Positions 25,698 through 45,812 are shown, numbered from the stretch's first letter. The stretch: 64,000 bases of DNA from Thermoanaerobaculia bacterium (GCA_035995205.1 DASYKS010000102.1:3069-67068), one strand, 5' to 3'. Made by a program: numbers and translations. The notes: generated from the letters alone by a model not told the origin.

Positions 25698-26966
25698 ATG
25701 GAAAAAAGCTCGCTACGCCAGCTCTCGGTCCTCATGGCCACGGTGTTCGTGGACATGGTGGGCTTTCTGATCGTCCACCCCTTGCTGCCGTTCTACGCCG
25801 AGAGCCTGGGGGCGACGGCGACCGTGATCGGTCTGCTGGTGGCGATCTTTGCCGCGGCGCAGTTGCTCTCGTCTCCGATCTGGGGCCGCCTCTCCGACCG
25901 CTACGGCCGACGCCCGTTGCTGATCGCCGGGCTGCTGGTCTCGGCGGTCTCTTTCGGCCTATTCGGCTTTGCCACCTCGATCTGGATGCTGTTCGTCTTC
26001 CGCTTCGTCCAGGGGGTCGGCGGTGGAACGGTCGGCGTCGTCCAGGCTTATGTGAGCGACGCCGTTCCCCCCGAGGAACGGGCGAAGGCGCTCGGCTGGA
26101 TCACCGCGGCGACCAGCGCCGGGGTCATGATCGGCCCGCTGATCGGCTCGTACGCCACCCGGCTCGGCGCTTCGGGTCCCGGTTTCGTCGCCGCCGCGCT
26201 CTGCATCATGAACGCGATTTCGGCCTACCTCTGGCTCCCCGAGCCGGGGCGACGGAGCTCGGCGGTCAAGAGCACTGCGCCGCGTCGCTCGCTGCGCAAA
26301 TCGATCGCGGAAGTGTTGCGCGAGCCGACCTCGCCGGTCGCCTCGCTGATCTGGGTCTACGCCGTGGGGATGATGGCCTTCATGGCGATGAACGGCATCC
26401 TGGCGCTCTTCCTGGCGAAGAAGTTCGGGATCACCAAGGAATCGATCGGCTGGTTCTATACCTACGTGGGCTGCATCTCTCTCGTGATGCGCGCCTTGCT
26501 GCTCGGTCCGATGGTGCGCCGCTTCGGCGAGGTGGGCGTGATGAAGCTGGGCGCGATCTCGCTCGCGATCGGCCTTGCCGCGATCCCGTTCGCACCGAGC
26601 ATTCCGGTGCTCGCGGTAGCGGTTCTTTTCGTACCGGTCGGCACCGCCCTGCTTTTCCCCGCGACCACCGCCCTCGTATCTCACACGGCACCCGAAGGGG
26701 AGACCGGCCAGGTGATGGGCGTCCAGCAGGCGTTCGGCGGGGTCGCCCGCATGCTCGGCCCGATCTGGGCCGGCAAGGCGTTCGACGTTCTCGGTCCCCA
26801 GGCGCCGTTCTGGATGGCCGCGGCGCTGATGCTGGGAGTCGGCGGCCTCACCCACCGGATCGAGGAACCCAAAAAAGCGCCGCAGAAACCCCTCGCCGAA
26901 GATCCGGGGGTGACCGCCGATCCCCTCCGCCCGGTCGCGACGATCCCCACCATCACCCCGCGCTAG
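25698..26966 (+). CDS. MFS transporter (DHA1-like efflux family)
   Basis: 422 aa, 12 predicted TM. Motif A-like GRLSDRYGRRP. Confidence 0.85.
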   Translation: MEKSSLRQLSVLMATVFVDMVGFLIVHPLLPFYAESLGATATVIGLLVAIFAAAQLLSSPIWGRLSDRYGRRPLLIAGLLVSAVSFGLFGFATSIWMLFVFRFVQGVGGGTVGVVQAYVSDAVPPEERAKALGWITAATSAGVMIGPLIGSYATRLGASGPGFVAAALCIMNAISAYLWLPEPGRRSSAVKSTAPRRSLRKSIAEVLREPTSPVASLIWVYAVGMMAFMAMNGILALFLAKKFGITKESIGWFYTYVGCISLVMRALLLGPMVRRFGEVGVMKLGAISLAIGLAAIPFAPSIPVLAVAVLFVPVGTALLFPATTALVSHTAPEGETGQVMGVQQAFGGVARMLGPIWAGKAFDVLGPQAPFWMAAALMLGVGGLTHRIEEPKKAPQKPLAEDPGVTADPLRPVATIPTITPR

Positions 26967-27068: not shown

Positions 27069-27431
27069 TCAAGCGGCGACGACGCTGATTCGACCAGTCT
27101 TCCTGGAACGGGGCTTTCGGCGAATCACGATCTCGACGTCTTGGTCGAGCGCCGTCAACAGCTTCATCAGGCGTTCGACGGAAAACCCCGCCAATTTGTA
27201 ATGACGAAGCGCAGAGACCTTCGGCTGCGTCACTCCCAGCACTTCGGCCGCATCTGACTGCGAGAGCTTTCGCTCTTCGAGCTCTTGATTCAGGGCATAG
27301 GCCAAGCGAAGCTTGGCCTGACGTTCGGCGGCGTCGGGGAACCCCAAGTCGGCGAACACGTTTCCAGTGCCCCGGGTGATCGGTTCTTGCCGCACCCTGA
27401 CGATTATCCCAGTTCTGGGCTGATCCGGCAA
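27069..27431 (-). CDS. XRE-family HTH protein, HigA-like antitoxin-type; orphan
   Basis: 120 aa (TTG start; GTG at 27395 is an alternative). NVFADLGFPDAAE...LSQSDAAEVLGVTQPKVSALRHYKLAGFSVERLMKLLTALDQDVEIVI is the pattern of HigA-like antidotes. No toxin ORF was found on either flank. Confidence 0.55.
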   Translation of the reverse strand: MPDQPRTGIIVRVRQEPITRGTGNVFADLGFPDAAERQAKLRLAYALNQELEERKLSQSDAAEVLGVTQPKVSALRHYKLAGFSVERLMKLLTALDQDVEIVIRRKPRSRKTGRISVVAA

Positions 27432-27654: not shown

Positions 27655-27815
27655 GTCAGCCGCTGATGCTCGGGGTGGGCGGCCTCACCCGCAGGGTGGA
27701 AGAGCCCCTGAAGTCGCCGCCGATTCCTCTTGCGTCAGACTCCCCGCTCTCGATGACCATCGATCCGCTCGATCCCGCGGCCATTCAGCCGGTCGCTAAG
27801 GTAACCCCGCAGTAA
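27655..27815 (+). pseudogene. fragment homologous to the 3' end of the MFS transporter gene (copy C)
   Basis: Encodes ...LMLGVGGLTRRVEEPLKSP..., matching the MFS C-terminus AALMLGVGGLTHRIEEPKKAP. Nucleotide similarity to 26830-26880 and to copy B. Confidence 0.5.
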
Positions 27816-31752: not shown

Positions 31753-31839
31753 GCCGTCCTCCGCTTAGAAGAGGTAAGGGCAGCGTAATGCCGCCTCGCA
31801 AAGAAATCCAGCACCTGCTCTCAAAGCGCATTGCCGCGC

Positions 31840-32150
31840 CGCGATCCCGTTCGCGCCAAGCATTCCGGTGCTCGCCATAGCGGTTCTGTTCGTACAGGTA
31901 GGCACCGCCCTGCTCTTCCCCGCGACCACCGCGCTCGTTTCGCGCACGGCACCGGAAGGCGAAACCGAGCCAGGTGATGGGTGTGCAGCAGGCGTTCGGC
32001 GGCGTCGGCCGTATGCTCGGGCCGATCTGGGCCGGCAAGGCGTTCGACGTCCTCGGCCCCCAGGCGCCGTTCTGGATGGCCGCGGCTCTGATGCTCGGGG
32101 TAGGGGGCCTCAGCCGTCGGGTGGACGAGCCGCTGAAGTCGCCCAAAGAC
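31840..32150 (+). pseudogene. frameshifted fragment homologous to the last ~300 nt of the MFS transporter gene (copy B)
   Basis: Roughly 85-90% nt identity by eye to 26590-26870 (…IPVLAVAVLFVPVGTALLFPATTALVS…), in the same orientation. Reading frame broken at EGETEPGDG. Confidence 0.6.
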
Positions 32151-32299
32151 CTCGAAGAAGTACCCGCATTCCCAGTGCCGACCGAGACTCTCGACCCCCG
32201 CCACGATCCAGCCGATTCCGAGCGTCACCCAGAGGTAGGCGGGTCGACACCAGCCCCAAAAGAAACAAGGCAGGCCGTGAGGCCTGCCTTGAGGATTTC

Positions 32300-32380
<81 letters not shown>

Positions 32381-32769
32381 GTGCCCCTGTCTCCAGGGGA
32401 GCGGCAGTGTCTCATAACCGGTGAGCGGTGTCAAAGATTCCCGGGCGGGCGGGCGGTAGGGCATCCGTCAAGGTCGCCGGGAGCATGCCCAATGTAGGGG
32501 CCTCTGTTGAAATTCCGAGCACCGCGCGTCAGCTTCGGCTGACCGTCGCGGGGAAGCGCGCTAGGAATGTTCCGCAGCGGCCCGGCGTTTCGACGAAGCG
32601 AAAAAACGGTTCGCGGACTCAAAGGAAGAGCGAGCGGACACTGAGAACGGAGTTTCGGGACGCGGCTCGCCGCGTTCGCGACGCGCCACCGGTTCTCCGG
32701 CGGGGGGAACCGTGAGGCGAGACGCGGAGCAGGAGCTGAACGACAAGACAAACCCCGTCGCGGATACTA

Positions 32770-33030
32770 CCGACCCCGTCGCGCACGCTACGAACCGGTG
32801 AGCGGACGCTAGACACCACTTTCCGTACACGACCCACCGGTGAGCGGACGCTAATCACCAGTGACCGGACACTACCCACTGGTGAGCGGACACTAGCAAG
32901 AGGTGAACGGACACTACGCACCACTTTTCGCACACGACTCACCGGTGGACGGACGCTTCGGAGTGGTGTTGTGACACCAGAAACCAGTGAATGGACGCAA
33001 CTCACTGGTTTTTTGCGTCCGCGAACCACT
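32770..33030. repeat. array of ~21-bp phased direct repeats (consensus GGTGAGCGGACRCTA), 7 direct copies plus one inverted copy
   Basis: Copies at 32797, 32839, 32861, 32881, 32902, 32944 and 32987; inverted copy at 33013-33027. Spacings of 20-22 or 42 bp. Confidence 0.7.
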
Positions 33031-33049
33031 TTCTAGTGTGCGCGCACCG

Positions 33050-33260
33050 GTGTTTCGTGTTGCAACACCACTTCATTGTGTTGCAACAGTGATTTCGGCG
33101 CGCGTGACCGAGGTGATTTGTGTTGCGGGAGTGACGCCTCGTGTTGCAGCAACACAGATTTGTGTCGTGTGAACGGTCCCCGGATTCGAGAAACCGGAGG
33201 TTTGTGTTGCAGTAGCAGGGCGCGCGCCGCATCAGGGGTACTTTGTCTTGCAACTCCGAG
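33050..33260. repeat. cluster of palindromic GTGTTGCAACAC-type sites (7 copies, 2-3 perfect palindromes)
   Basis: GTGTTGCAACAC at 33057-33068; TGTTGCAACA at 33079-33088; GTGTTGCAGCAACAC at 33141-33155. Degenerate half-sites near 33118, 33159, 33204 and 33244. Confidence 0.7.
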
Positions 33261-33281
33261 GGGCCGCGTCCCATAGGGACC

Positions 33282-35705
33282 CTACTCCCCCTTGAGCGTT
33301 TCCATCGGCTGGATGCGCGCGGTCCGCGTGGCGGGGAGCCAACTCGCCAGGAAGGCCGAGGCGAGGAGGATCGCCGCCATTCCGCCGAACGTCGCCGGAT
33401 CGGCCGGCGCGACTTGGAACAGCAGGCTTCCCAGCAGCCGTCCGGCGCCGAACGCGCCCGCCGTGCCGAGGGCGAGCCCGACGGCCACGGCGGAGAGCGA
33501 GCGGCGGACGACGAACCCGCGGATTTCGCCCGGGGCGGCTCCCAGCGCCAGCCGGATCGCGAGCTCGCGCCGCCGTTGGGCGACGGTGTAGGCAACCACC
33601 CCCGCGATTCCCACGACCGCGAGCGCCAGGGCGACGAACGCGAACGCGCCGAGCAGCAGCATCGAGAACCGCCGGTCGCGCACCGAGCCCGCGATCACTT
33701 CGCCCATCGTGGCGATCGTCGCCGGCACCTCGCGGTCGCGCCGTTCGATCGCCGAACGGAGCGTCGCCGCGATGGCTCCCGGGTCGCCTTCGCCGCGCAC
33801 GACGACCGAGCCGAACGTCCGATCTTTGGGCCGCTGGGCGAGGGAGAAATAGACCGTCGGCTGCGGCGAGGCGTCGAGCGAATCGTCCTTGACGTCGCCG
33901 ACCACGCCGACCACGGTCGCCCAGACGTCGCGGTTGAAGAACTCGTCCATCCCGTTGGCGTGAACCCGTTTGCCGATTGGGTCCTGGCCCGGCCAGGCGA
34001 GCGCGGCCATCCGGCGATCGACGACCGCGACGTGGCCCGCGGTCGGCCGGTCGGCGAGCGAGAAGGTCCGGCCCCGCAACAGCGGGATCCCCATCGCCTC
34101 GAAATATCCGCGGCTCGCGAGCCGGTAGTTGACGTCGGCGGTCGGCCGCGGACCGCCCTCGACTTTGATCTGGCCGTCCGCGCCGTCGCCGCCGAGCGGC
34201 AGGCCGACCACGACGCCCGCCCGCTGGATTCCGGGCAGACCCGCGAGGTCGTCGAGCAGCCCGTCGTAGTAGGCCGCGATCTTCGCCCCGTCGGGATAGC
34301 GCGAAGGGGGCAGGTTCAGGCGCGCGGTGGCGACGCTCTCGGGCGAGAAACCGAGCTCGACCGAAAGGAGCTTGCCGAAGCTCCGGATCAGCAGCCCCGA
34401 AGAGACCGCGAGGACGAGCGCGAGCGCCACCTCGGCGGCGACCAGCGCCCGCCAGGCCCGCTGGCGATGGGCGTCGGGAGTGCCGCCCGAGCCGCGTAGC
34501 GAGCGCTCCCGCCCGGCGACCTTGAGGCCCGGAAGCAGACCGAACAGAATCGCCGTCGCGAGCGAAACGGCGAGGGTGAAGCCGAGGACCCGGGCGTCGA
34601 GGCCGACTTCGCCCAAACGGGGGAGTGCGGCGGGGGCCAGGGCAACGAGCGCCGCGATCAGCGCGCGCCCGAGCAGAGTCCCCAGCCCGGCGCCGACGAA
34701 CGCGAGGACGACGCTCTCGGTCACCAGTTGGCCGAGCAGGCGGCCGGTACCCGCGCCGAGCGCGCGGCGGATCGCCATTTCCCGCCGCCGTCCCAGGCCG
34801 CGGGCGAGCAGAGCGCTCGCGAGGTTCGCGCAGGCGATCAGAAGAACCAGGCCGGACGCGCCGAACAAGATCCACAGCGGCCGCCGGGCGGAGCCGGCGA
34901 TCACCTCGCCGAGCGGGCGGACCGAAGCGCCGACCGCCATGTACTCGCCGGCCTCGCGCGGATCGTACGGCTCAAGGCTCGCGGTGATCGCGGACAGCTC
35001 GCGTTCGGCGGCCGCGGGCGGTATCCCGCTCCGAAGGCGTCCGAGCGCCCGGTAGTTGTGCGCCGTCCGGTACGGGGTTTGCTCGTCCAGCTCGGCCGGC
35101 ACCCAGATCTCCGTCTTCTCCGGAAACGCAAAGCCGGCGGGCATCACGCCGACCACCTGATAGCGCCGCCCGAGGACGTCGAGAAACCGCCGGCCGATCG
35201 CGCCACGGTCGCCCCCGAGCTGGGTCGCGAAATACGCGTGCGAGACGACCGCCACCGGTTCGGCTCCGAGCGCGTGCTCGGCGGGCAGGGGAGCCCGCCC
35301 GAGCGAGGGAACGACGCCGAGCGCCCGGAACCAATCGCTCGAAACGGCCGCGAGCCCCACTACCTCCGCGCGGTCGCCCCCCAGTACCGTCACCGGGTTT
35401 GCCGCGTAGACCGCGAGCGCCTCGAAGCTCCGCGCGCGAGCCCGCCAGTCGGACGCGTTCGCCCACGAGCAGCGCATCCGGCCGCCGTCCTTCGCCACCT
35501 CCGAGAGCCCCACCAACCGATCCGGGCGAGGATAGGGCAGCCGCTTCAGCAGAACCGCGTCGACCACCGAAAAGGTCGCCGTGTTGGCACCGATTCCAAG
35601 CGCCAGCGTGAGCGCGGCGGCGAGGGTGAATCCGGGGCTCTTCGCGAGCTGGCGCCCGGCGAGCTTGAGATCTTGGGCGATCGAGGCGGCGAAGCGGGTG
35701 GTCAT
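33282..35705 (-). CDS. MacB-like ABC permease with duplicated FtsX domains, no adjacent ATPase (ADOP-type, acidobacterial duplicated orphan permease)
   Basis: 807 aa. N-terminal MacB_PCD-like region, then two FtsX 4-TM modules. Begins [58 protein letters not shown]. Confidence 0.85.
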
Positions 35706-35801: not shown

Positions 35802-36164
35802 ATGCGGCCCACGAACCCAACCACCCAGGCAATGCGCCTCCCTCCAACTTCGGAGTCCCTTCTCGACGACTCGCAGAGGCCGTATTTTCTTTGGTGGACG
35901 AACGCCACCGCTGGGGATCTCAAGGGGCATCTCGACGCCGCCGACCCGGAGGAACGCGCCTACTGGATGGGTGCCCTGCTGCGCGAGGCCAACACCCGCG
36001 ACGTTTGGCTTTTCGTGAAACCAGACGAAATCAAGGCGCTCTGGCCGCGGCTGATCCGCTATCTCGGTCGCTCGCGGGACATGTGGGCCTGGCTTCTCGA
36101 GTTCCCGAAGCCCGAGTGGCCGCCGCTCAGCCAAATCCGTGCCGATCATGCGCAAGACCTTTGA
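35802..36164 (+). CDS. small Trp-rich partner protein of NTase copy 2 (putative antitoxin-like), family unknown
   Basis: 120 aa. The core ERAYWMGALLREANTRDVWLFVKPDEIKALWPRLIRYLGRSRDMWAWLL aligns with the partners of copies 1 and 3. Confidence 0.45.
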   Translation: MRPTNPTTQAMRLPPTSESLLDDSQRPYFLWWTNATAGDLKGHLDAADPEERAYWMGALLREANTRDVWLFVKPDEIKALWPRLIRYLGRSRDMWAWLLEFPKPEWPPLSQIRADHAQDL

Positions 36165-36804
36165 TCGGCGGGTCGTCTCGGAATCCGTCCTCGCATTCGT
36201 CCGTTCCTGTCAGGAGCGGGTGCCCTGTCATTTAGGCGGAGGAGCGGCACTGGCCGGCGCCTACCTGGGGCACCGGATGACCGGCGACATCGATCTCTTC
36301 GTACATGACGCGGACGACATGCGAATCTTGGTCGATTCGCTACCCGCCCTGGTAAAGAGGGGAGGGATCTCGGTCGCCCTGCTCCGCGACGTGGGCCACC
36401 TCGTCCGCGCGCGACTTTCGGAACCGGACGGTCGTAGCGTCGAGGTCGACATCGTCCACGAACCGTCGGTCGATCTATCGGATCCCCCGCCGCCGATCGA
36501 TGGAGTGGTGGTCGAGTCACTGATGGATCTGCGAGCCAGCAAGCTGACTTGCATCCTCTCGCGTTCGGAGCCGCGAGACCTCGTCGATCTTCTGTTCCTC
36601 GATCGGGCCGGGTACCCGCCCGAGAAAGATCTGGGCCTCGCGATTCGAAAAGACGCCGGCATCGACCCAGGGGTGCTCGCGTGGCTCCTCGGTCAGTTTC
36701 CCGTGAATCCGCTGCCCGAAATGCTGGAGCCCTTGAGCCCGAAGGAACTGGAAGAGTTCCGAATCGCGCTCGCTGAGCGCCTTCGGCGCTCGACTCTGCC
36801 GTAA
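36139..36804 (+). CDS. nucleotidyltransferase, AbiEii/AbiGii (DUF1814) toxin family; copy 2
   Basis: 221 aa with LGGGAALAGAYLGHRMTGDIDLF. Overlaps its partner gene; ATG at 36148 is an alternative start. Confidence 0.75.
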   Translation: MPIMRKTFDRRVVSESVLAFVRSCQERVPCHLGGGAALAGAYLGHRMTGDIDLFVHDADDMRILVDSLPALVKRGGISVALLRDVGHLVRARLSEPDGRSVEVDIVHEPSVDLSDPPPPIDGVVVESLMDLRASKLTCILSRSEPRDLVDLLFLDRAGYPPEKDLGLAIRKDAGIDPGVLAWLLGQFPVNPLPEMLEPLSPKELEEFRIALAERLRRSTLP

Positions 36805-45145: not shown

Positions 45146-45347
45146 GGGGAGGGGAACCCCTCTCAGCGTCCGAGGTCTTGCTCGGCTTCTTTGAGATGGA
45201 CTCTGATCATGATGGCTAACCTCCTTCCCGCAGGCCGGAAAGAACACCGCGAACACAGCTTGCCTGGGCTCCCGCCGGAATTCACCGACCGACCTCAGCC
45301 GTTCATCCGGCTCCTAGAGAAGTTCGCTCGGCGCTTCGGAAGGCAGG

Positions 45348-45638
45348 GTGGAGTCACCCAGCAATTCGGTCCGGTACCGTGAGAAATGGGTGAAGTCACG
45401 CAGGAAATCACCCGAGCCGCGTGGAAATTCACTCAAGTCCCCGAGAAAATGGGTGAAGTCCCTCAGTAAATCGCTCAAGTCACGCAAGAATTCGGTGAAG
45501 TCCCCGAAAAATTCACCGAAGTCCCCCAGGAAATGGGCGAAGTCCCCTAGAAATTCACTCAAGTCCTCCAGAAATTCGCTGGAGTCCCCCAAGAAATGGC
45601 TGAAGTCCCCCAGGAAATCGAATTTCTGGAGGACTTGA
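45348..45638 (+). CDS. possible repetitive basic protein with KSPRKWV-type heptad repeats encoded by the 21-bp array (coding status uncertain)
   Basis: GTG start with GGAAGG 4 nt upstream. 96-aa ORF open across 11 tandem 21-nt units. The opposite strand is also open (acidic EFLGDFx heptads), so this may be noncoding. Confidence 0.25.
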   Translation: MESPSNSVRYREKWVKSRRKSPEPRGNSLKSPRKWVKSLSKSLKSRKNSVKSPKNSPKSPRKWAKSPRNSLKSSRNSLESPKKWLKSPRKSNFWRT

Positions 45639-45671
45639 GCGAATTTCTGCGTGGCTTCACCGAATTCCTGC
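45364..45671. repeat. tandem array of 21-bp repeats (about 12 direct units, consensus AATGGGTGAAGTCCCCCAGGA / ATTCACTCAAGTCC...) ending with about 2.5 inverted units
   Basis: Direct units from 45385 to 45615 in exact 21-nt register. Positions 45620-45661 are the reverse complement of the units CGCTCAAGTCCTCCAGAAATT and CGGTGAAGCCACGCAGAAATT. Local GC is ~50%. Confidence 0.8.
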
Positions 45672-45812
45672 GCCCAGGGGCCTTGCGCCGTTTGTATCTT
45701 TTCGCCGGCGGCGACGTATTTCCAGGGGAGACGCCCAGCGCTTCGCTTGCTCGGGTCCCCCTAGATCTCGATCGAAAAACGCTCTCGCCCCTTGCGAGAA
45801 GGAGAGACGCTC

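What the first reader, a model, noticed from the sequence alone, without database searches (positions are those of the whole stretch)
32770..33030. Array of 21-bp-phased direct repeats GGTGAGCGGACRCTA (7 direct plus 1 inverted) in a 900-bp noncoding gap
Copies start at 32797, 32839, 32861, 32881, 32902, 32944 and 32987, with spacings that are multiples of ~21 bp (two helical turns). An inverted copy at 33013-33027 forms an 8-bp-stem hairpin with the last direct copy. Same-face phased direct repeats like this are how iterons and response-regulator (OmpR/PhoB-type) binding arrays look. The array lies between the 3' end of the ADOP permease gene and the promoter side of tRNA-fMet, on the side of the tRNA opposite the low-GC island.
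Basis: seen in the sequence. Interest (0 to 1): 0.6.

Follow-up and report, generated by a model that had tools for sequence, protein, structure and literature searches.

The report
Two-armed lattice of 21-bp repeats
About 690 bp of non-coding DNA just upstream of the initiator-tRNA promoter is built from some 31 end-to-end 21-bp units in two opposed arms; it is real, looks inserted, is conserved in one other uncultured bacterium, looks like a docking platform for a DNA-binding protein, and fits no described family.

Summary
GGTGAGCGGACRCTA copies lie at exact multiples of 21 bp. They are the best-preserved part of a lattice running from 32605 to 33261: 19 plus-oriented units, a dyad junction near 33006, then 12 opposed units that drift to TTGTGTTGCAAC.

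A relative whose ADOP protein is 86% identical has only about 31 nt where this window has 838 bp, so the array-bearing segment is probably an insertion.

One homologue of the whole array exists in another metagenome (L067/L088). It is 61% identical and keeps the register unit by unit; the only core indel is one whole 21-nt unit. Specific unit positions are conserved (permutation p&lt;1e-4). Its flanks differ: there the right arm abuts a solitary Phd/YefM antitoxin gene.

- **Iteron origin:** no rep gene, DnaA box or AT-rich element.
- **OmpR/PhoB-type sites:** no 10.5-bp half-sites.
- **Csr-like RNA sponge:** the GGA cores and the T-run are not conserved.
- **Coding:** codon usage is wrong in every frame and no frame has a homologue.

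Best reading (confidence about 0.4): a phased, cooperative protein-binding DNA lattice carried on a small non-coding cassette, similar in kind to iteron or centromere arrays but not a member of either.

A second, unrelated 21-bp array with the same two-arm geometry lies at 45.3-45.7 kb and has relatives in three other assemblies.

The parts
32442..33279 (.). Segment present here but absent from the closest available relative: 838 bp here against about 31 nt there, between the ADOP stop codon and the tRNA-fMet promoter.
   Evidence: Alignment with L003 (GCA_031419995.1, ADOP 86% aa identity). Homology runs up to the stop codon plus GG on one side and resumes at GGAATCTTTGACA on the other.
32566..33262 (.). 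Block homologous to the array in L067/L089 and L088, i.e. the element proper.
   Evidence: Pairwise alignment gives 61% identity over 634 columns with the register kept. The only core indel is one whole 21-nt unit.
32605..33003 (+). Left (long) arm: 19 contiguous 21-bp units in plus orientation, consensus ACCGGTGAGCGGACRCTAnnn. They are well formed from 32752 and degenerate further left. 'B-type' units ACCACTTTYCGYACACGAC lie at 32815 and 32920.
   Evidence: 21-nt register tables, TRF period 21/42 and position-specific conservation against L067 (0 of 20,000 permutations in the core).
32797..32958 (+). The six best GGTGAGCGGACRCTA copies, starting at 32797, 32839, 32860, 32881, 32902 and 32944.
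32983..33030 (.). Junction where the two arms meet tail to tail, with its symmetry centre near 33006.5. Two overlapping dyads are present: ACCAGTGA (32983-32990) with TCACTGGT (33002-33009), followed by a T-run through 33014, and GGACGCAA (32993-33000) with TTGCGTCC (33013-33020).
   Evidence: Sequence, inverted repeat I3, a hairpin conserved in L067 with one compensatory pair, and an AT skew that changes sign here.
33010..33261 (-). Right (short) arm: 12 units in the same 21-bp register but opposed. The first two are clear inverted copies (33013-33027 and 33034-33048). The rest drift to TTGTGTTGCAAC, with copies at 33055, 33076, 33118, 33139, 33202 and 33243.
   Evidence: The TTGTGTYGCA units are conserved at the same positions in L067.
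32406..32434 (-). Inferred tRNA-fMet promoter: -35 TTGACA (32429-32434), a 17-nt spacer, and an extended -10 TGaGACACT (-10 hexamer at 32406-32411). The spacer contains an exact 13-mer of the array unit, AACCGGTGAGCGG, at 32416-32428.
   Evidence: This block is conserved base for base with L003 except for two spacer positions, where L003 reads CCGCGCGCCGGTT. The 13-mer is repeat family D5. The promoter assignment itself is an inference from consensus and conservation.
32301..32377 (-). tRNA-Met(CAT) with initiator features; its promoter abuts the inserted segment.
   Evidence: ARAGORN and Rfam RF00005 at 65.4 bits. The initiator features were read from the sequence.

Best explanation
The array is a non-coding DNA lattice that acts as a phased, cooperative binding platform for a small sequence-specific DNA-binding protein. 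It is carried on a 0.7-0.84 kb cassette that contains no gene.

Shown:
- About 31 contiguous 21-bp units are arranged in two opposed arms that meet at a dyad.
- Each left-arm unit has two conserved patches about one helical turn apart: a head ACCRGTG at positions 1-7 and a body G.AC.C.A at positions 11-18. A conserved patch therefore recurs on the same DNA face at every turn.
- The register and these positions are kept in a homologue that is otherwise 39% diverged.
- The segment is absent from a close relative.

Inferred:
- One protein, probably a dimer, binds per unit.
- Binding nucleates at the best-conserved units next to the junction and spreads outward along both arms, giving a nucleoprotein filament of about 650 bp.
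- Such a filament would titrate or organise the protein, in the manner of iteron 'inc' arrays or plasmid centromeres. Here it would also occupy the DNA immediately upstream of the tRNA-fMet promoter.
- The only candidate partner is the Phd/YefM-type antitoxin encoded next to the right arm in the L067/L088 homologue. No such gene lies in this window, so here the protein would act in trans, or the array is an orphan.
For: - **Register:** exact 21-bp phase over about 29 units despite 30-40% divergence between units.
- **Homologue:** a homologue of the whole array, with different flanks, keeps unit-by-unit register. The only core indel is one whole unit.
- **Selective conservation:** mismatches between the two arrays are strongly unequal across the 21 unit positions. 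Positions 1, 5, 6, 7, 11, 13, 16 and 18 have at most 0.18 mismatch, against 0.55-0.91 at positions 4, 9, 12 and 20. The chi-square is 57, and 0 of 20,000 permutations reach it.
- **Stability:** two near-identical strains from different datasets differ at only a few bases and by no indel, so this is not a hypervariable tandem repeat.
- **Not coding:** codon log-odds are at most 0.03 in all six frames. GC3 is 0.51 in the two open frames against 0.85-0.89 in host genes. No protein homologue exists for any frame.
- **Not a known RNA:** Rfam finds nothing.
- **DNA-binding gene nearby:** a Phd/YefM gene (PF02604, E = 3.8e-14) abuts the homologue's right arm.
- **Independent parallel:** a second array family with the same 21-bp period and two-arm geometry lies beside a gene with a C-terminus that looks like a winged helix (by eye only) in two loci.
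Against: - No binding has been shown and no cognate protein is identified in this genome.
- The Phd adjacency is a single observation in TA-rich genomes.
- Thirty-one sites is far more than any operator needs.
- The right arm shows no significant position-specific conservation in the + register (p = 0.44).
- A weak coding-like signal exists. The synonymous fraction is 0.29-0.33 in two frames against 0.10-0.12 in the other four, and the minus-strand frame is open in both loci.
- Only two independent copies of the family are known, so selection cannot be calibrated against neutral divergence.
Confidence: 0.4

Rival explanations
1. A selfish or neutral tandem-repeat insertion, satellite-like or MITE-like, with no cellular role. 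It would be made by slippage or unequal exchange of a 21/42-bp unit and copied between sites as a unit.
For: - The segment is present here but absent from a close relative.
- The two copies have different flanks.
- The outer units are degenerate.
- There are no genes inside, and no copies elsewhere in the window or in 8 kb beyond it.
- The family is rare in public data.
Against: - Position-specific conservation between the two copies is highly significant.
- The register survives 39% divergence, with only a whole-unit indel in the core.
- There is no copy-number change between two strains.
- The best-conserved units lie at the centre rather than at the termini, which is the opposite of transposon ends.
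- I identified no terminal inverted repeats or target duplication, but I did not search for them formally.
Confidence: 0.22
2. A repeat-bearing non-coding RNA transcribed from the plus strand, divergently from the tRNA. Each unit would present a small hairpin GGUG-AGCGGA-CRCU with GGA in the loop, and the RNA would end at the junction hairpin plus U-run. That would make it a CsrB/RsmZ-like protein sponge.
For: - In the window, GGA occurs 18 times on the + strand against 2 on the - strand, where 9.5 +/- 2.6 is expected.
- The junction hairpin is followed by T6 on the + strand only.
- The R and G/A variation in the units keeps the pairs through G-U wobble on the + strand only (read).
- A UUCG-loop hairpin lies at 32528-32543.
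Against: - In the homologue the GGA cores are mostly GAA (CGAAC), and GGA is not enriched there: 12 against 8.7 +/- 2.5 expected.
- The T-run is not conserved (TTTCCA in the homologue).
- Folding z-scores are equal on the two strands (-4.2 and -4.1), and covariation is equal on both strands.
- The 21-bp register continues through the supposed terminator into the other arm.
- Rfam finds nothing and no sigma-70-like promoter was found.
Confidence: 0.1
3. A protein-coding gene, or the wreck of one, made of heptad repeats on the minus strand (SVRSPVx, ORF 33029->32619, 136 aa). The 21-bp period would simply be seven codons.
For: - The period is a multiple of 3, and the only core indel is 21 nt.
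- The minus-strand frame is open across the left arm in both loci.
- The synonymous fraction is about 3 times higher in this frame and its antisense partner than in the other four frames.
- Mismatch by codon position runs second < first < third: 0.21, 0.34, 0.39.
- The neighbouring array3 family shows a clearer third-position signal.
Against: - Codon log-odds are -0.11 and GC3 is 0.51, against +0.22 to +0.38 and 0.85-0.89 in host genes.
- There is no conserved start codon or ribosome-binding site.
- Two of the seven third positions are among the most conserved positions in the unit.
- No homologue was found among 5.8 billion proteins for any frame.
- Gene callers do not call it in any of the three contigs.
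- The right arm has no coding signal.
- The phase effect is only marginal (my chi-square on the counts gives p of about 0.04-0.09).
Confidence: 0.1
4. A true plasmid-type module, meaning an iteron origin or inc locus, or a par centromere, left behind by an integrated replicon.
For: - Unit length and spacing match iterons, and direct plus inverted copies occur as at rep operators.
- Contiguous direct and inverted repeats occur as in type Ib/II centromeres (PMC5016525, PMC3074162).
- The genomic neighbourhoods are TA-rich.
Against: - There is no rep, parA, parM or tubZ gene in or next to either copy.
- There is no DnaA box or AT-rich region.
- There is no similarity to 72,556 plasmids or 50,697 phages.
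- The insert is only 838 bp and sits between conserved chromosomal neighbours.
Confidence: 0.08

Closest known systems
Iteron arrays of theta-replicating plasmids and chromids (P1/F/RK2/R6K type; Vibrio ori2-inc titration sites)
   Same: Non-palindromic units of about 20 bp repeat every two helical turns, with several direct copies plus inverted ones. Non-origin 'inc' arrays act purely by titrating or handcuffing the initiator (PMC6090056; the plasmid details are from my own knowledge).
   Different: Iterons sit beside the initiator gene and come with DnaA boxes, an IHF site and an AT-rich unwinding element (PMC6090056). None of these is present here. Thirty-one units in two long arms is several times larger than any iteron set I know of. 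There is no plasmid homology.
Plasmid partition centromeres bound cooperatively by small dimeric proteins (pCXC100 parS with nine unspaced 9-bp repeats; pSM19035 omega sites with 7-10 heptads in direct and inverted order; pSK41/R1 parC)
   Same: Uninterrupted tandem sub-sites, direct and inverted, are coated cooperatively by small repressor-like dimers into a continuous nucleoprotein helix. The binding proteins share folds with antitoxins, and omega also regulates a TA operon (PMC3074162, PMC5016525).
   Different: Those units are 7-20 bp, number 4-12, and lie immediately upstream of the par operon that encodes their binding protein and an NTPase. Here the unit is 21 bp, there are about 31 units, and there is no par gene. 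The only adjacent DNA-binding gene is Phd/YefM, seen in the homologue only, and it is not a known centromere-binding protein.
Operators of Phd/YefM-family toxin-antitoxin operons
   Same: In L067/L088 the right arm (TTGTGTYGCA units, partly palindromic TGTTGCAACA in the window) ends 70-90 nt before a phd/yefM start codon, which is where an autoregulatory operator would lie.
   Different: Known TA operators are one or two short palindromes, not a 650-bp lattice (my own knowledge). The gene there has no toxin partner. This window has no phd gene at all.
CsrB/RsmZ-type protein-sponge sRNAs
   Same: There are many GGA-bearing repeats on one strand, ending at a hairpin plus U-run.
   Different: Neither GGA nor the U-run is conserved in the homologue. 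There is no Rfam match. The register continues beyond the 'terminator'.
The second 21-bp array in this window (45319-45675) and its relatives L081, L082/L083 and L084
   Same: It has exactly the same period and the same geometry: a long arm of about 11 good units, a dyad junction and a short opposed arm. It has no indels between loci, lies in different TA-rich contexts and is absent from plasmid, phage and viral collections. One L081 unit is a hybrid, GGTGAGCGGAC + TCAGAAATTC.
   Different: Its unit sequence is unrelated (GGGGACTTCAGCGAATTTCTG). It shows a clearer third-codon-position pattern, and gene callers annotate it as a GDFSEFL heptad protein. Its neighbour is a different gene, 'gene X'.

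Membership tests
Iteron-type replication origin | Tandem direct repeats of about 17-22 bp spaced in helical phase | tested here: met
   Exact 21-bp register. Identity at lag 21 is 0.44 against a background of 0.26.
Iteron-type replication origin | Adjacent gene for the cognate initiator (Rep) | tested here: not met
   The flanks are the ADOP permease and tRNA-fMet, and there is no credible ORF in the gap. The homologue's flanks are an unknown 107-aa ORF and Phd/YefM.
Iteron-type replication origin | DnaA box(es) and an AT-rich unwinding element | tested here: not met
   The nearest TTATCCACA-like site (at most 1 mismatch) is more than 11 kb away, and the count equals chance. The lowest GC in any 100-bp window is 0.51.
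Iteron-type replication origin | Replicon context (plasmid or chromid, or a GC-skew switch at the site) | tested here: not met
   No blastn match in PLSDB or INPHARED. Cumulative skew does not turn at 33 kb. The neighbours are syntenic with a relative's chromosome.
OmpR/PhoB-type response-regulator binding array | Each site consists of two direct half-sites about 10-11 bp apart | tested here: not met
   Identity at lag 10 and 11 is 0.228 and 0.251, which is background.
OmpR/PhoB-type response-regulator binding array | The motif marks a regulon, with copies at other promoters | tested here: inconclusive
   Only 2 chance-level matches outside the array in 64 kb, and one 3-mismatch match (none closer) in a further 8 kb. 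The rest of the genome could not be reached, because the source genome is not in the scanned collections.
Plasmid partition centromere (type Ib/II/III) | Contiguous tandem sub-sites, direct and/or inverted | tested here: met
Plasmid partition centromere (type Ib/II/III) | Lies upstream of a par operon encoding the centromere-binding protein and an NTPase | tested here: not met
   No ParA, ParM, TubZ or ParB/ParR/ParG gene near either copy.
Plasmid partition centromere (type Ib/II/III) | Cooperative binding by the cognate protein | not testable with these tools
   Needs EMSA, footprinting or DAP-seq.
CsrB/RsmZ-type sponge sRNA | Many conserved GGA motifs presented in loops | tested here: not met
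   GGA is enriched in the window (18 against 9.5 expected) but not in the homologue (12 against 8.7). The core is CGAAC in most L067 units.
CsrB/RsmZ-type sponge sRNA | Own promoter and intrinsic terminator; match to an RNA family | tested here: not met
   No promoter-like site, a T-run that is not conserved, and no Rfam match even at E <= 10.
Protein-coding heptad-repeat gene | An ORF with a start signal, host-like codon usage and homologous proteins | tested here: not met
   Codon log-odds at most 0.03 and GC3 of 0.51. No homologue for any frame. Not called as a gene. Only a weak excess of synonymous changes.
CRISPR array | Conserved repeats separated by unique spacers of similar length | tested here: not met
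   The units are contiguous with no spacers.
Transposon or MITE ends with multiple transposase-binding sites (Tn7/Mu-like) | Best-conserved terminal repeats at the outer ends, a target-site duplication and several genomic copies | tested here: inconclusive
   The outermost units are the most degenerate and the junction units are the best conserved. I identified no TSD, but the insert boundaries are uncertain by about 30 nt. Genome-wide copy number could not be tested.

The most novel reading that the evidence does not exclude
The two arrays in this window represent an undescribed class of bacterial non-coding element found in Thermoanaerobaculia-like genomes. These are gene-free cassettes of 0.3-0.7 kb built as two opposed arms of exactly 21-bp units around a dyad. 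They move between chromosomal sites and act as assembly or titration platforms for small antitoxin-like or winged-helix DNA-binding proteins. In effect they would be chromosomal 'orphan centromeres' or handcuffing sites with family-specific unit sequences.
Probability: 0.2. Interest if true: 0.75.

Novelty: new variant of a known kind. Interest (0 to 1): 0.55.

Why it matters
If the lattice is a protein-assembly site, it would show that the logic of iterons and plasmid centromeres also exists as free-standing, gene-less cassettes in chromosomes of a barely studied phylum. That logic is many phased sub-sites coated cooperatively by one small protein.

Here the cassette sits directly against the promoter of the initiator tRNA. 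It would therefore give a concrete handle on how such arrays arise, move and are kept in register. The handle consists of a defined 21-bp unit, a candidate Phd/YefM partner and a second family for comparison.

If the array turns out to be inert, it is still a clean example of a tandem array that keeps its phase and specific positions over deep divergence, and that would need explaining.

Tried and rejected
- **ADOP-anchored synteny:** the 86% relative (L003) lacks the array, and the 58% homologue (L004) is not syntenic.
- **Collection scans for the 18-mer ACYGGTGAGCGGACRCTA:** GTDB representative genomes gave 20 single chance hits and no array. JGI metagenomes gave 30 single hits, of which only L067 proved to be an array, and I found that only on a later lag-21 scan.
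- **IMG/VR scans with four patterns:** chance hits only.
- **blastn against plasmids and phages:** nothing.
- **Csr-like sponge and intrinsic terminator:** this was my own early favourite. I rejected it once the homologue showed that GGA and the T-run are not conserved.
- **RNA structure:** equal z-scores and equal covariation on the two strands, so uninformative.
- **Protein searches:** a concatenate of four translated frames found no homologue, and Pfam found nothing on the ORFs.
- **'Gene X' from the array3 loci:** no Pfam, NCBIfam, PHROG, PDB or plasmid hit, and no copy in the window.
- **Restriction-site avoidance or decoy idea for ACCGGT:** the site is not avoided outside the array.
- **Literature searches for 21-bp arrays:** nothing directly relevant.
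- **Extension of the contig by 8 kb:** no further array, no motif copy closer than three mismatches, and no partner gene.

Full report
**Observation**

The repeats are real. GGTGAGCGGACRCTA occurs with at most 3 mismatches at 32797, 32839, 32860, 32881, 32902 and 32944 on the + strand. A weak copy lies at 32629, and inverted copies lie at 33013-33027 and 33034-33048. That makes 11 matches in the window against 4.45 +/- 2.05 expected, and no shuffle reaches 11. The 32986 copy has four mismatches but is in register.

The 8-bp hairpin between the last direct copy and the first inverted copy exists: GGACGCAA at 32993-33000 pairs with TTGCGTCC at 33013-33020. The setting is as described. The ADOP permease (MacB_PCD + FtsX domains) lies at 33282-35705 on the minus strand. 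tRNA-Met(CAT) lies at 32301-32377 on the minus strand and has initiator features by inspection. A low-GC stretch lies on the far side of the tRNA.

**True extent and anatomy**

Writing the gap out in rows of 21 shows that the register, marked by 'ACC' at the start of each unit, persists far beyond the reported coordinates. Identity at lags 21, 42, 63 and 84 is 0.44, 0.45, 0.39 and 0.42, against about 0.26 at other lags. Lags 10 and 11 are at background, so a unit is not two half-sites.

The array has three parts:
- **Left arm:** 19 plus-oriented units at 32605-33003, well formed from 32752, with consensus ACCGGTGAGCGGACRCTA.
- **Junction:** centred near 33006.
- **Right arm:** 12 units in the opposite orientation at 33010-33261. 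The first two are clear inverted copies. The rest drift to TTGTGTTGCAAC, itself 8 matches against 0.92 expected.

The AT skew changes sign at the junction. The phase is exact from 32605 to about 33213, and a single 1-nt slip occurs near the outer end of the right arm.

**The segment is probably an insertion**

The source is a Thermoanaerobaculia metagenome-assembled genome. In the closest available relative (L003, ADOP 86% identical), the ADOP stop codon is followed after about 31 nt by the same tRNA promoter block and tRNA. This window has 838 bp (32442-33279) in that place.

The conserved block reads as a promoter: TTGACA, a 17-nt spacer, then TGaGACACT. The segment therefore begins 7 nt upstream of the -35 element. 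Two taxa alone cannot say whether this is an insertion here or a deletion there. I infer an insertion because the array also exists elsewhere with other flanks (next section).

The promoter spacer in this window contains an exact 13-mer of the array unit, AACCGGTGAGCGG, at 32416-32428 and 32793-32805. The relative differs there at two bases. I cannot explain this.

**A homologue of the whole array**

Scans of GTDB representative genomes, IMG/VR and JGI metagenome contigs with unit patterns gave almost only single chance hits. One metagenome hit, L067 (JGI 3300010400), proved on a lag-21 scan to be an array. It aligns with the window array over its whole length, about 32566-33262. The alignment covers the left arm, the 'B-type' units (ACCACTTTTCGSACACGA), the junction and the TTGTGTYGCA right arm.

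Identity is 61% over 634 columns. The only indel in the well-formed core is one whole 21-nt unit. Four 1-2-nt gaps lie in the degenerate outer parts.

A second contig from a different dataset (L088, ENA) carries the same locus. It differs at a few bases and by no indel, so the array is not a hypervariable tandem repeat. The flanks are unrelated to those in the window. There the right arm is followed within about 90 nt by a solitary Phd/YefM antitoxin gene (PF02604, E = 3.8e-14) and then a TenA-family gene.

**Evidence for constraint**

Mismatches between the two arrays are very unevenly spread over the 21 unit positions in the left core. Positions 1, 5, 6, 7, 11, 13, 16 and 18 change in at most 18% of units. 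Positions 4, 9, 12 and 20 change in 55-91%. The chi-square is 57, and 0 of 20,000 permutations reach it. For the whole left arm p = 0.00025; the right arm in the + register is not significant.

The conserved positions form two patches about one helical turn apart: a head ACCRGTG and a body G.AC.C.A. With a 21-bp unit, a conserved patch therefore recurs on the same face of the helix at every turn. This is an inference from the sequence. Keeping the phase through about 39% divergence, with only a whole-unit indel, also argues against free neutral decay.

**What it is not**

- **Iteron origin.** There is no initiator gene, no DnaA box near the array, no AT-rich element (minimum GC 0.51), no skew switch and no similarity to plasmids or phages.
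- **OmpR/PhoB-type sites.** There is no 10-11-bp sub-periodicity, and there are no extra copies in the window or in 8 kb beyond it.
- **Csr/Rsm-like sponge RNA.** I took this seriously. The + strand has 18 GGA against 2 on the other strand, and the junction hairpin is followed by T6. In the homologue, however, the cores are mostly CGAAC, GGA is not enriched, and the T-run reads TTTCCA. The two strands fold equally well and show equal covariation. Rfam finds nothing.
- **Coding.** Two frames, TGERTLx on the + strand and SVRSPVx on the - strand, are open and show a synonymous fraction of about 0.3, against about 0.1 in the others. The minus-strand frame is open in both loci. Against this, codon log-odds are at most 0.03 in all six frames. 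GC3 is 0.51 in the two open frames, against 0.85-0.89 in host genes. There is no conserved start codon, no gene call and no homologue in 5.8 billion proteins.

**Most likely mechanism**

I read the array as a phased protein-binding lattice. One small protein, probably a dimer, would bind per 21-bp unit. Binding would nucleate at the best-conserved units flanking the dyad and spread cooperatively along both arms on one face of the DNA. The result would be a nucleoprotein filament of about 650 bp.

The shown steps are the geometry, the selective conservation and the non-coding, non-RNA-family status. The inferred steps are binding itself, the identity of the protein and the consequence. The only lead on the protein is the Phd/YefM gene beside the homologue's right arm. 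The consequence could be titration or organisation of the protein and occupation of the DNA directly upstream of the tRNA-fMet promoter.

The closest described systems are iteron 'inc' arrays (PMC6090056) and plasmid centromeres coated by small dimers. Examples of the latter are the nine unspaced 9-bp repeats of pCXC100 and the 7-10 direct and inverted heptads of pSM19035 (PMC3074162, PMC5016525). The array works like these in outline. It fails the membership tests for each family because it has no rep or par gene, no origin elements and no replicon context.

**A second array with the same design**

At 45319-45675 lies a different 21-bp array with unit GAAATTCRCTSAAGTCCCC. It has about 11 good direct units plus 3 inverted units around a dyad.

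Its translation (heptads GDFSEFL) has relatives that led to three other loci: L081, L082/L083 and L084. These carry the same motif, the same unit number and the same two-arm layout. They show no indels between loci and have unrelated, TA-rich flanks.

In that family, differences between loci concentrate at the third codon position of the GDFSEFL frame (2.41 against 1.34 and 0.97 pair differences per column), so it may be translated. In L084, and as a fragment in L081, a gene with a C-terminus that looks like a winged helix (by eye only) ends just before the short arm. That gene has no known family. One L081 unit is a hybrid carrying the array-1 core, GGTGAGCGGAC.

Two unrelated unit sequences sharing one exact period and one architecture within 12 kb is the main reason I keep open the idea of a wider, undescribed class of element.

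**Verdict**

My confidence in the protein-binding lattice reading is about 0.4. The rivals are a neutral or selfish repeat (0.22), an RNA (0.10), coding heptads (0.10) and a plasmid remnant (0.08).

The feature is unusual and has no described counterpart, but its function is untested and only two independent copies are known. I score interest at 0.55.

Noticed in passing
window 45319-45675 (ORF 45314-45592 on the minus strand); L081 5881-6195; L082 720-1205; L084 500-800: A second, unrelated array of exact 21-bp units (GGGGACTTCAGCGAATTTCTG on the minus strand) with the same long-arm, dyad and short-arm layout. It is conserved in three other assemblies in different TA-rich contexts. Gene callers annotate it as a GDFSEFL heptad protein, and differences between loci concentrate at third codon positions.
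   Followed up: partly
L084 1-459; L081 5656-5841: An unannotated gene ('gene X') ends 10-40 nt before the short arm of the array3-type element. It is intact in L084 and a 59-62-aa remnant in L081. Its C-terminus (...LSQALGISLDRGAVRRNLQLLVEEEIL..GRFRL) looks like a winged helix by eye only. It has no Pfam, NCBIfam, PHROG or PDB match and no copy in the window.
   Followed up: partly
L081 5881-5901: A hybrid unit, GGTGAGCGGACTCAGAAATTC. It joins the array-1 core (GGTGAGCGGAC) to the array-3 tail and is in phase with the array-3 short arm. This may be chance (roughly p = 0.01) or a hint that the two families are related.
   Followed up: no
window 32416-32428 vs 32793-32805: The spacer of the inferred tRNA-fMet promoter contains an exact 13-mer of the array unit (AACCGGTGAGCGG), one base out of the lattice phase. 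The relative without the array differs there at two positions (CCGCGCGCCGGTT). This could reflect site preference of the insertion, gene conversion, or shared protein binding.
   Followed up: partly
window 26572-26896 vs 31833-32158 (third partial copy at 27661-27733): The low-GC island (about 26.9-32.2 kb, GC 0.55-0.60) is bracketed by direct repeats of roughly 300 bp, 87-88% identical, of the 3' end of the MFS transporter gene. It carries an HTH_37 gene (27069-27431) and a 1296-aa TPR protein. It looks like an insertion that duplicated its target next to the 3' side of the tRNA.
   Followed up: partly
window 35802-36804: An AbiEii toxin gene (PF08843) with an upstream 120-aa partner lies immediately upstream of ADOP. 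The relative L003 has an FGE-sulfatase gene and an 86-aa ORF there instead. Three separate differences from the relative therefore cluster around this tRNA.
   Followed up: no
window 32528-32543: A perfect 6-bp hairpin with a UUCG loop on the + strand (GTCAGC-TTCG-GCTGAC). It lies in the part of the insert that has no counterpart in L067.
   Followed up: no
L088 1241-1483 (= L067 215-457 on the minus strand): The Phd/YefM antitoxin gene next to the homologous array has no toxin gene downstream (a TenA-family gene follows), so it is a solitary antitoxin-like DNA-binding protein.
   Followed up: partly
L002 (Logan SRR11678609 contig, ends 91 bp past the ADOP stop): An independent short-read assembly of the same organism breaks inside the right arm of the array, as expected for a repeat. 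It gives no information on copy-number variation.
   Followed up: no
window 1-64000: Cumulative GC skew rises to a maximum around 14-17 kb and then falls steadily to the end of the window. This is a weak sign of a change in skew polarity, far from the array.
   Followed up: no
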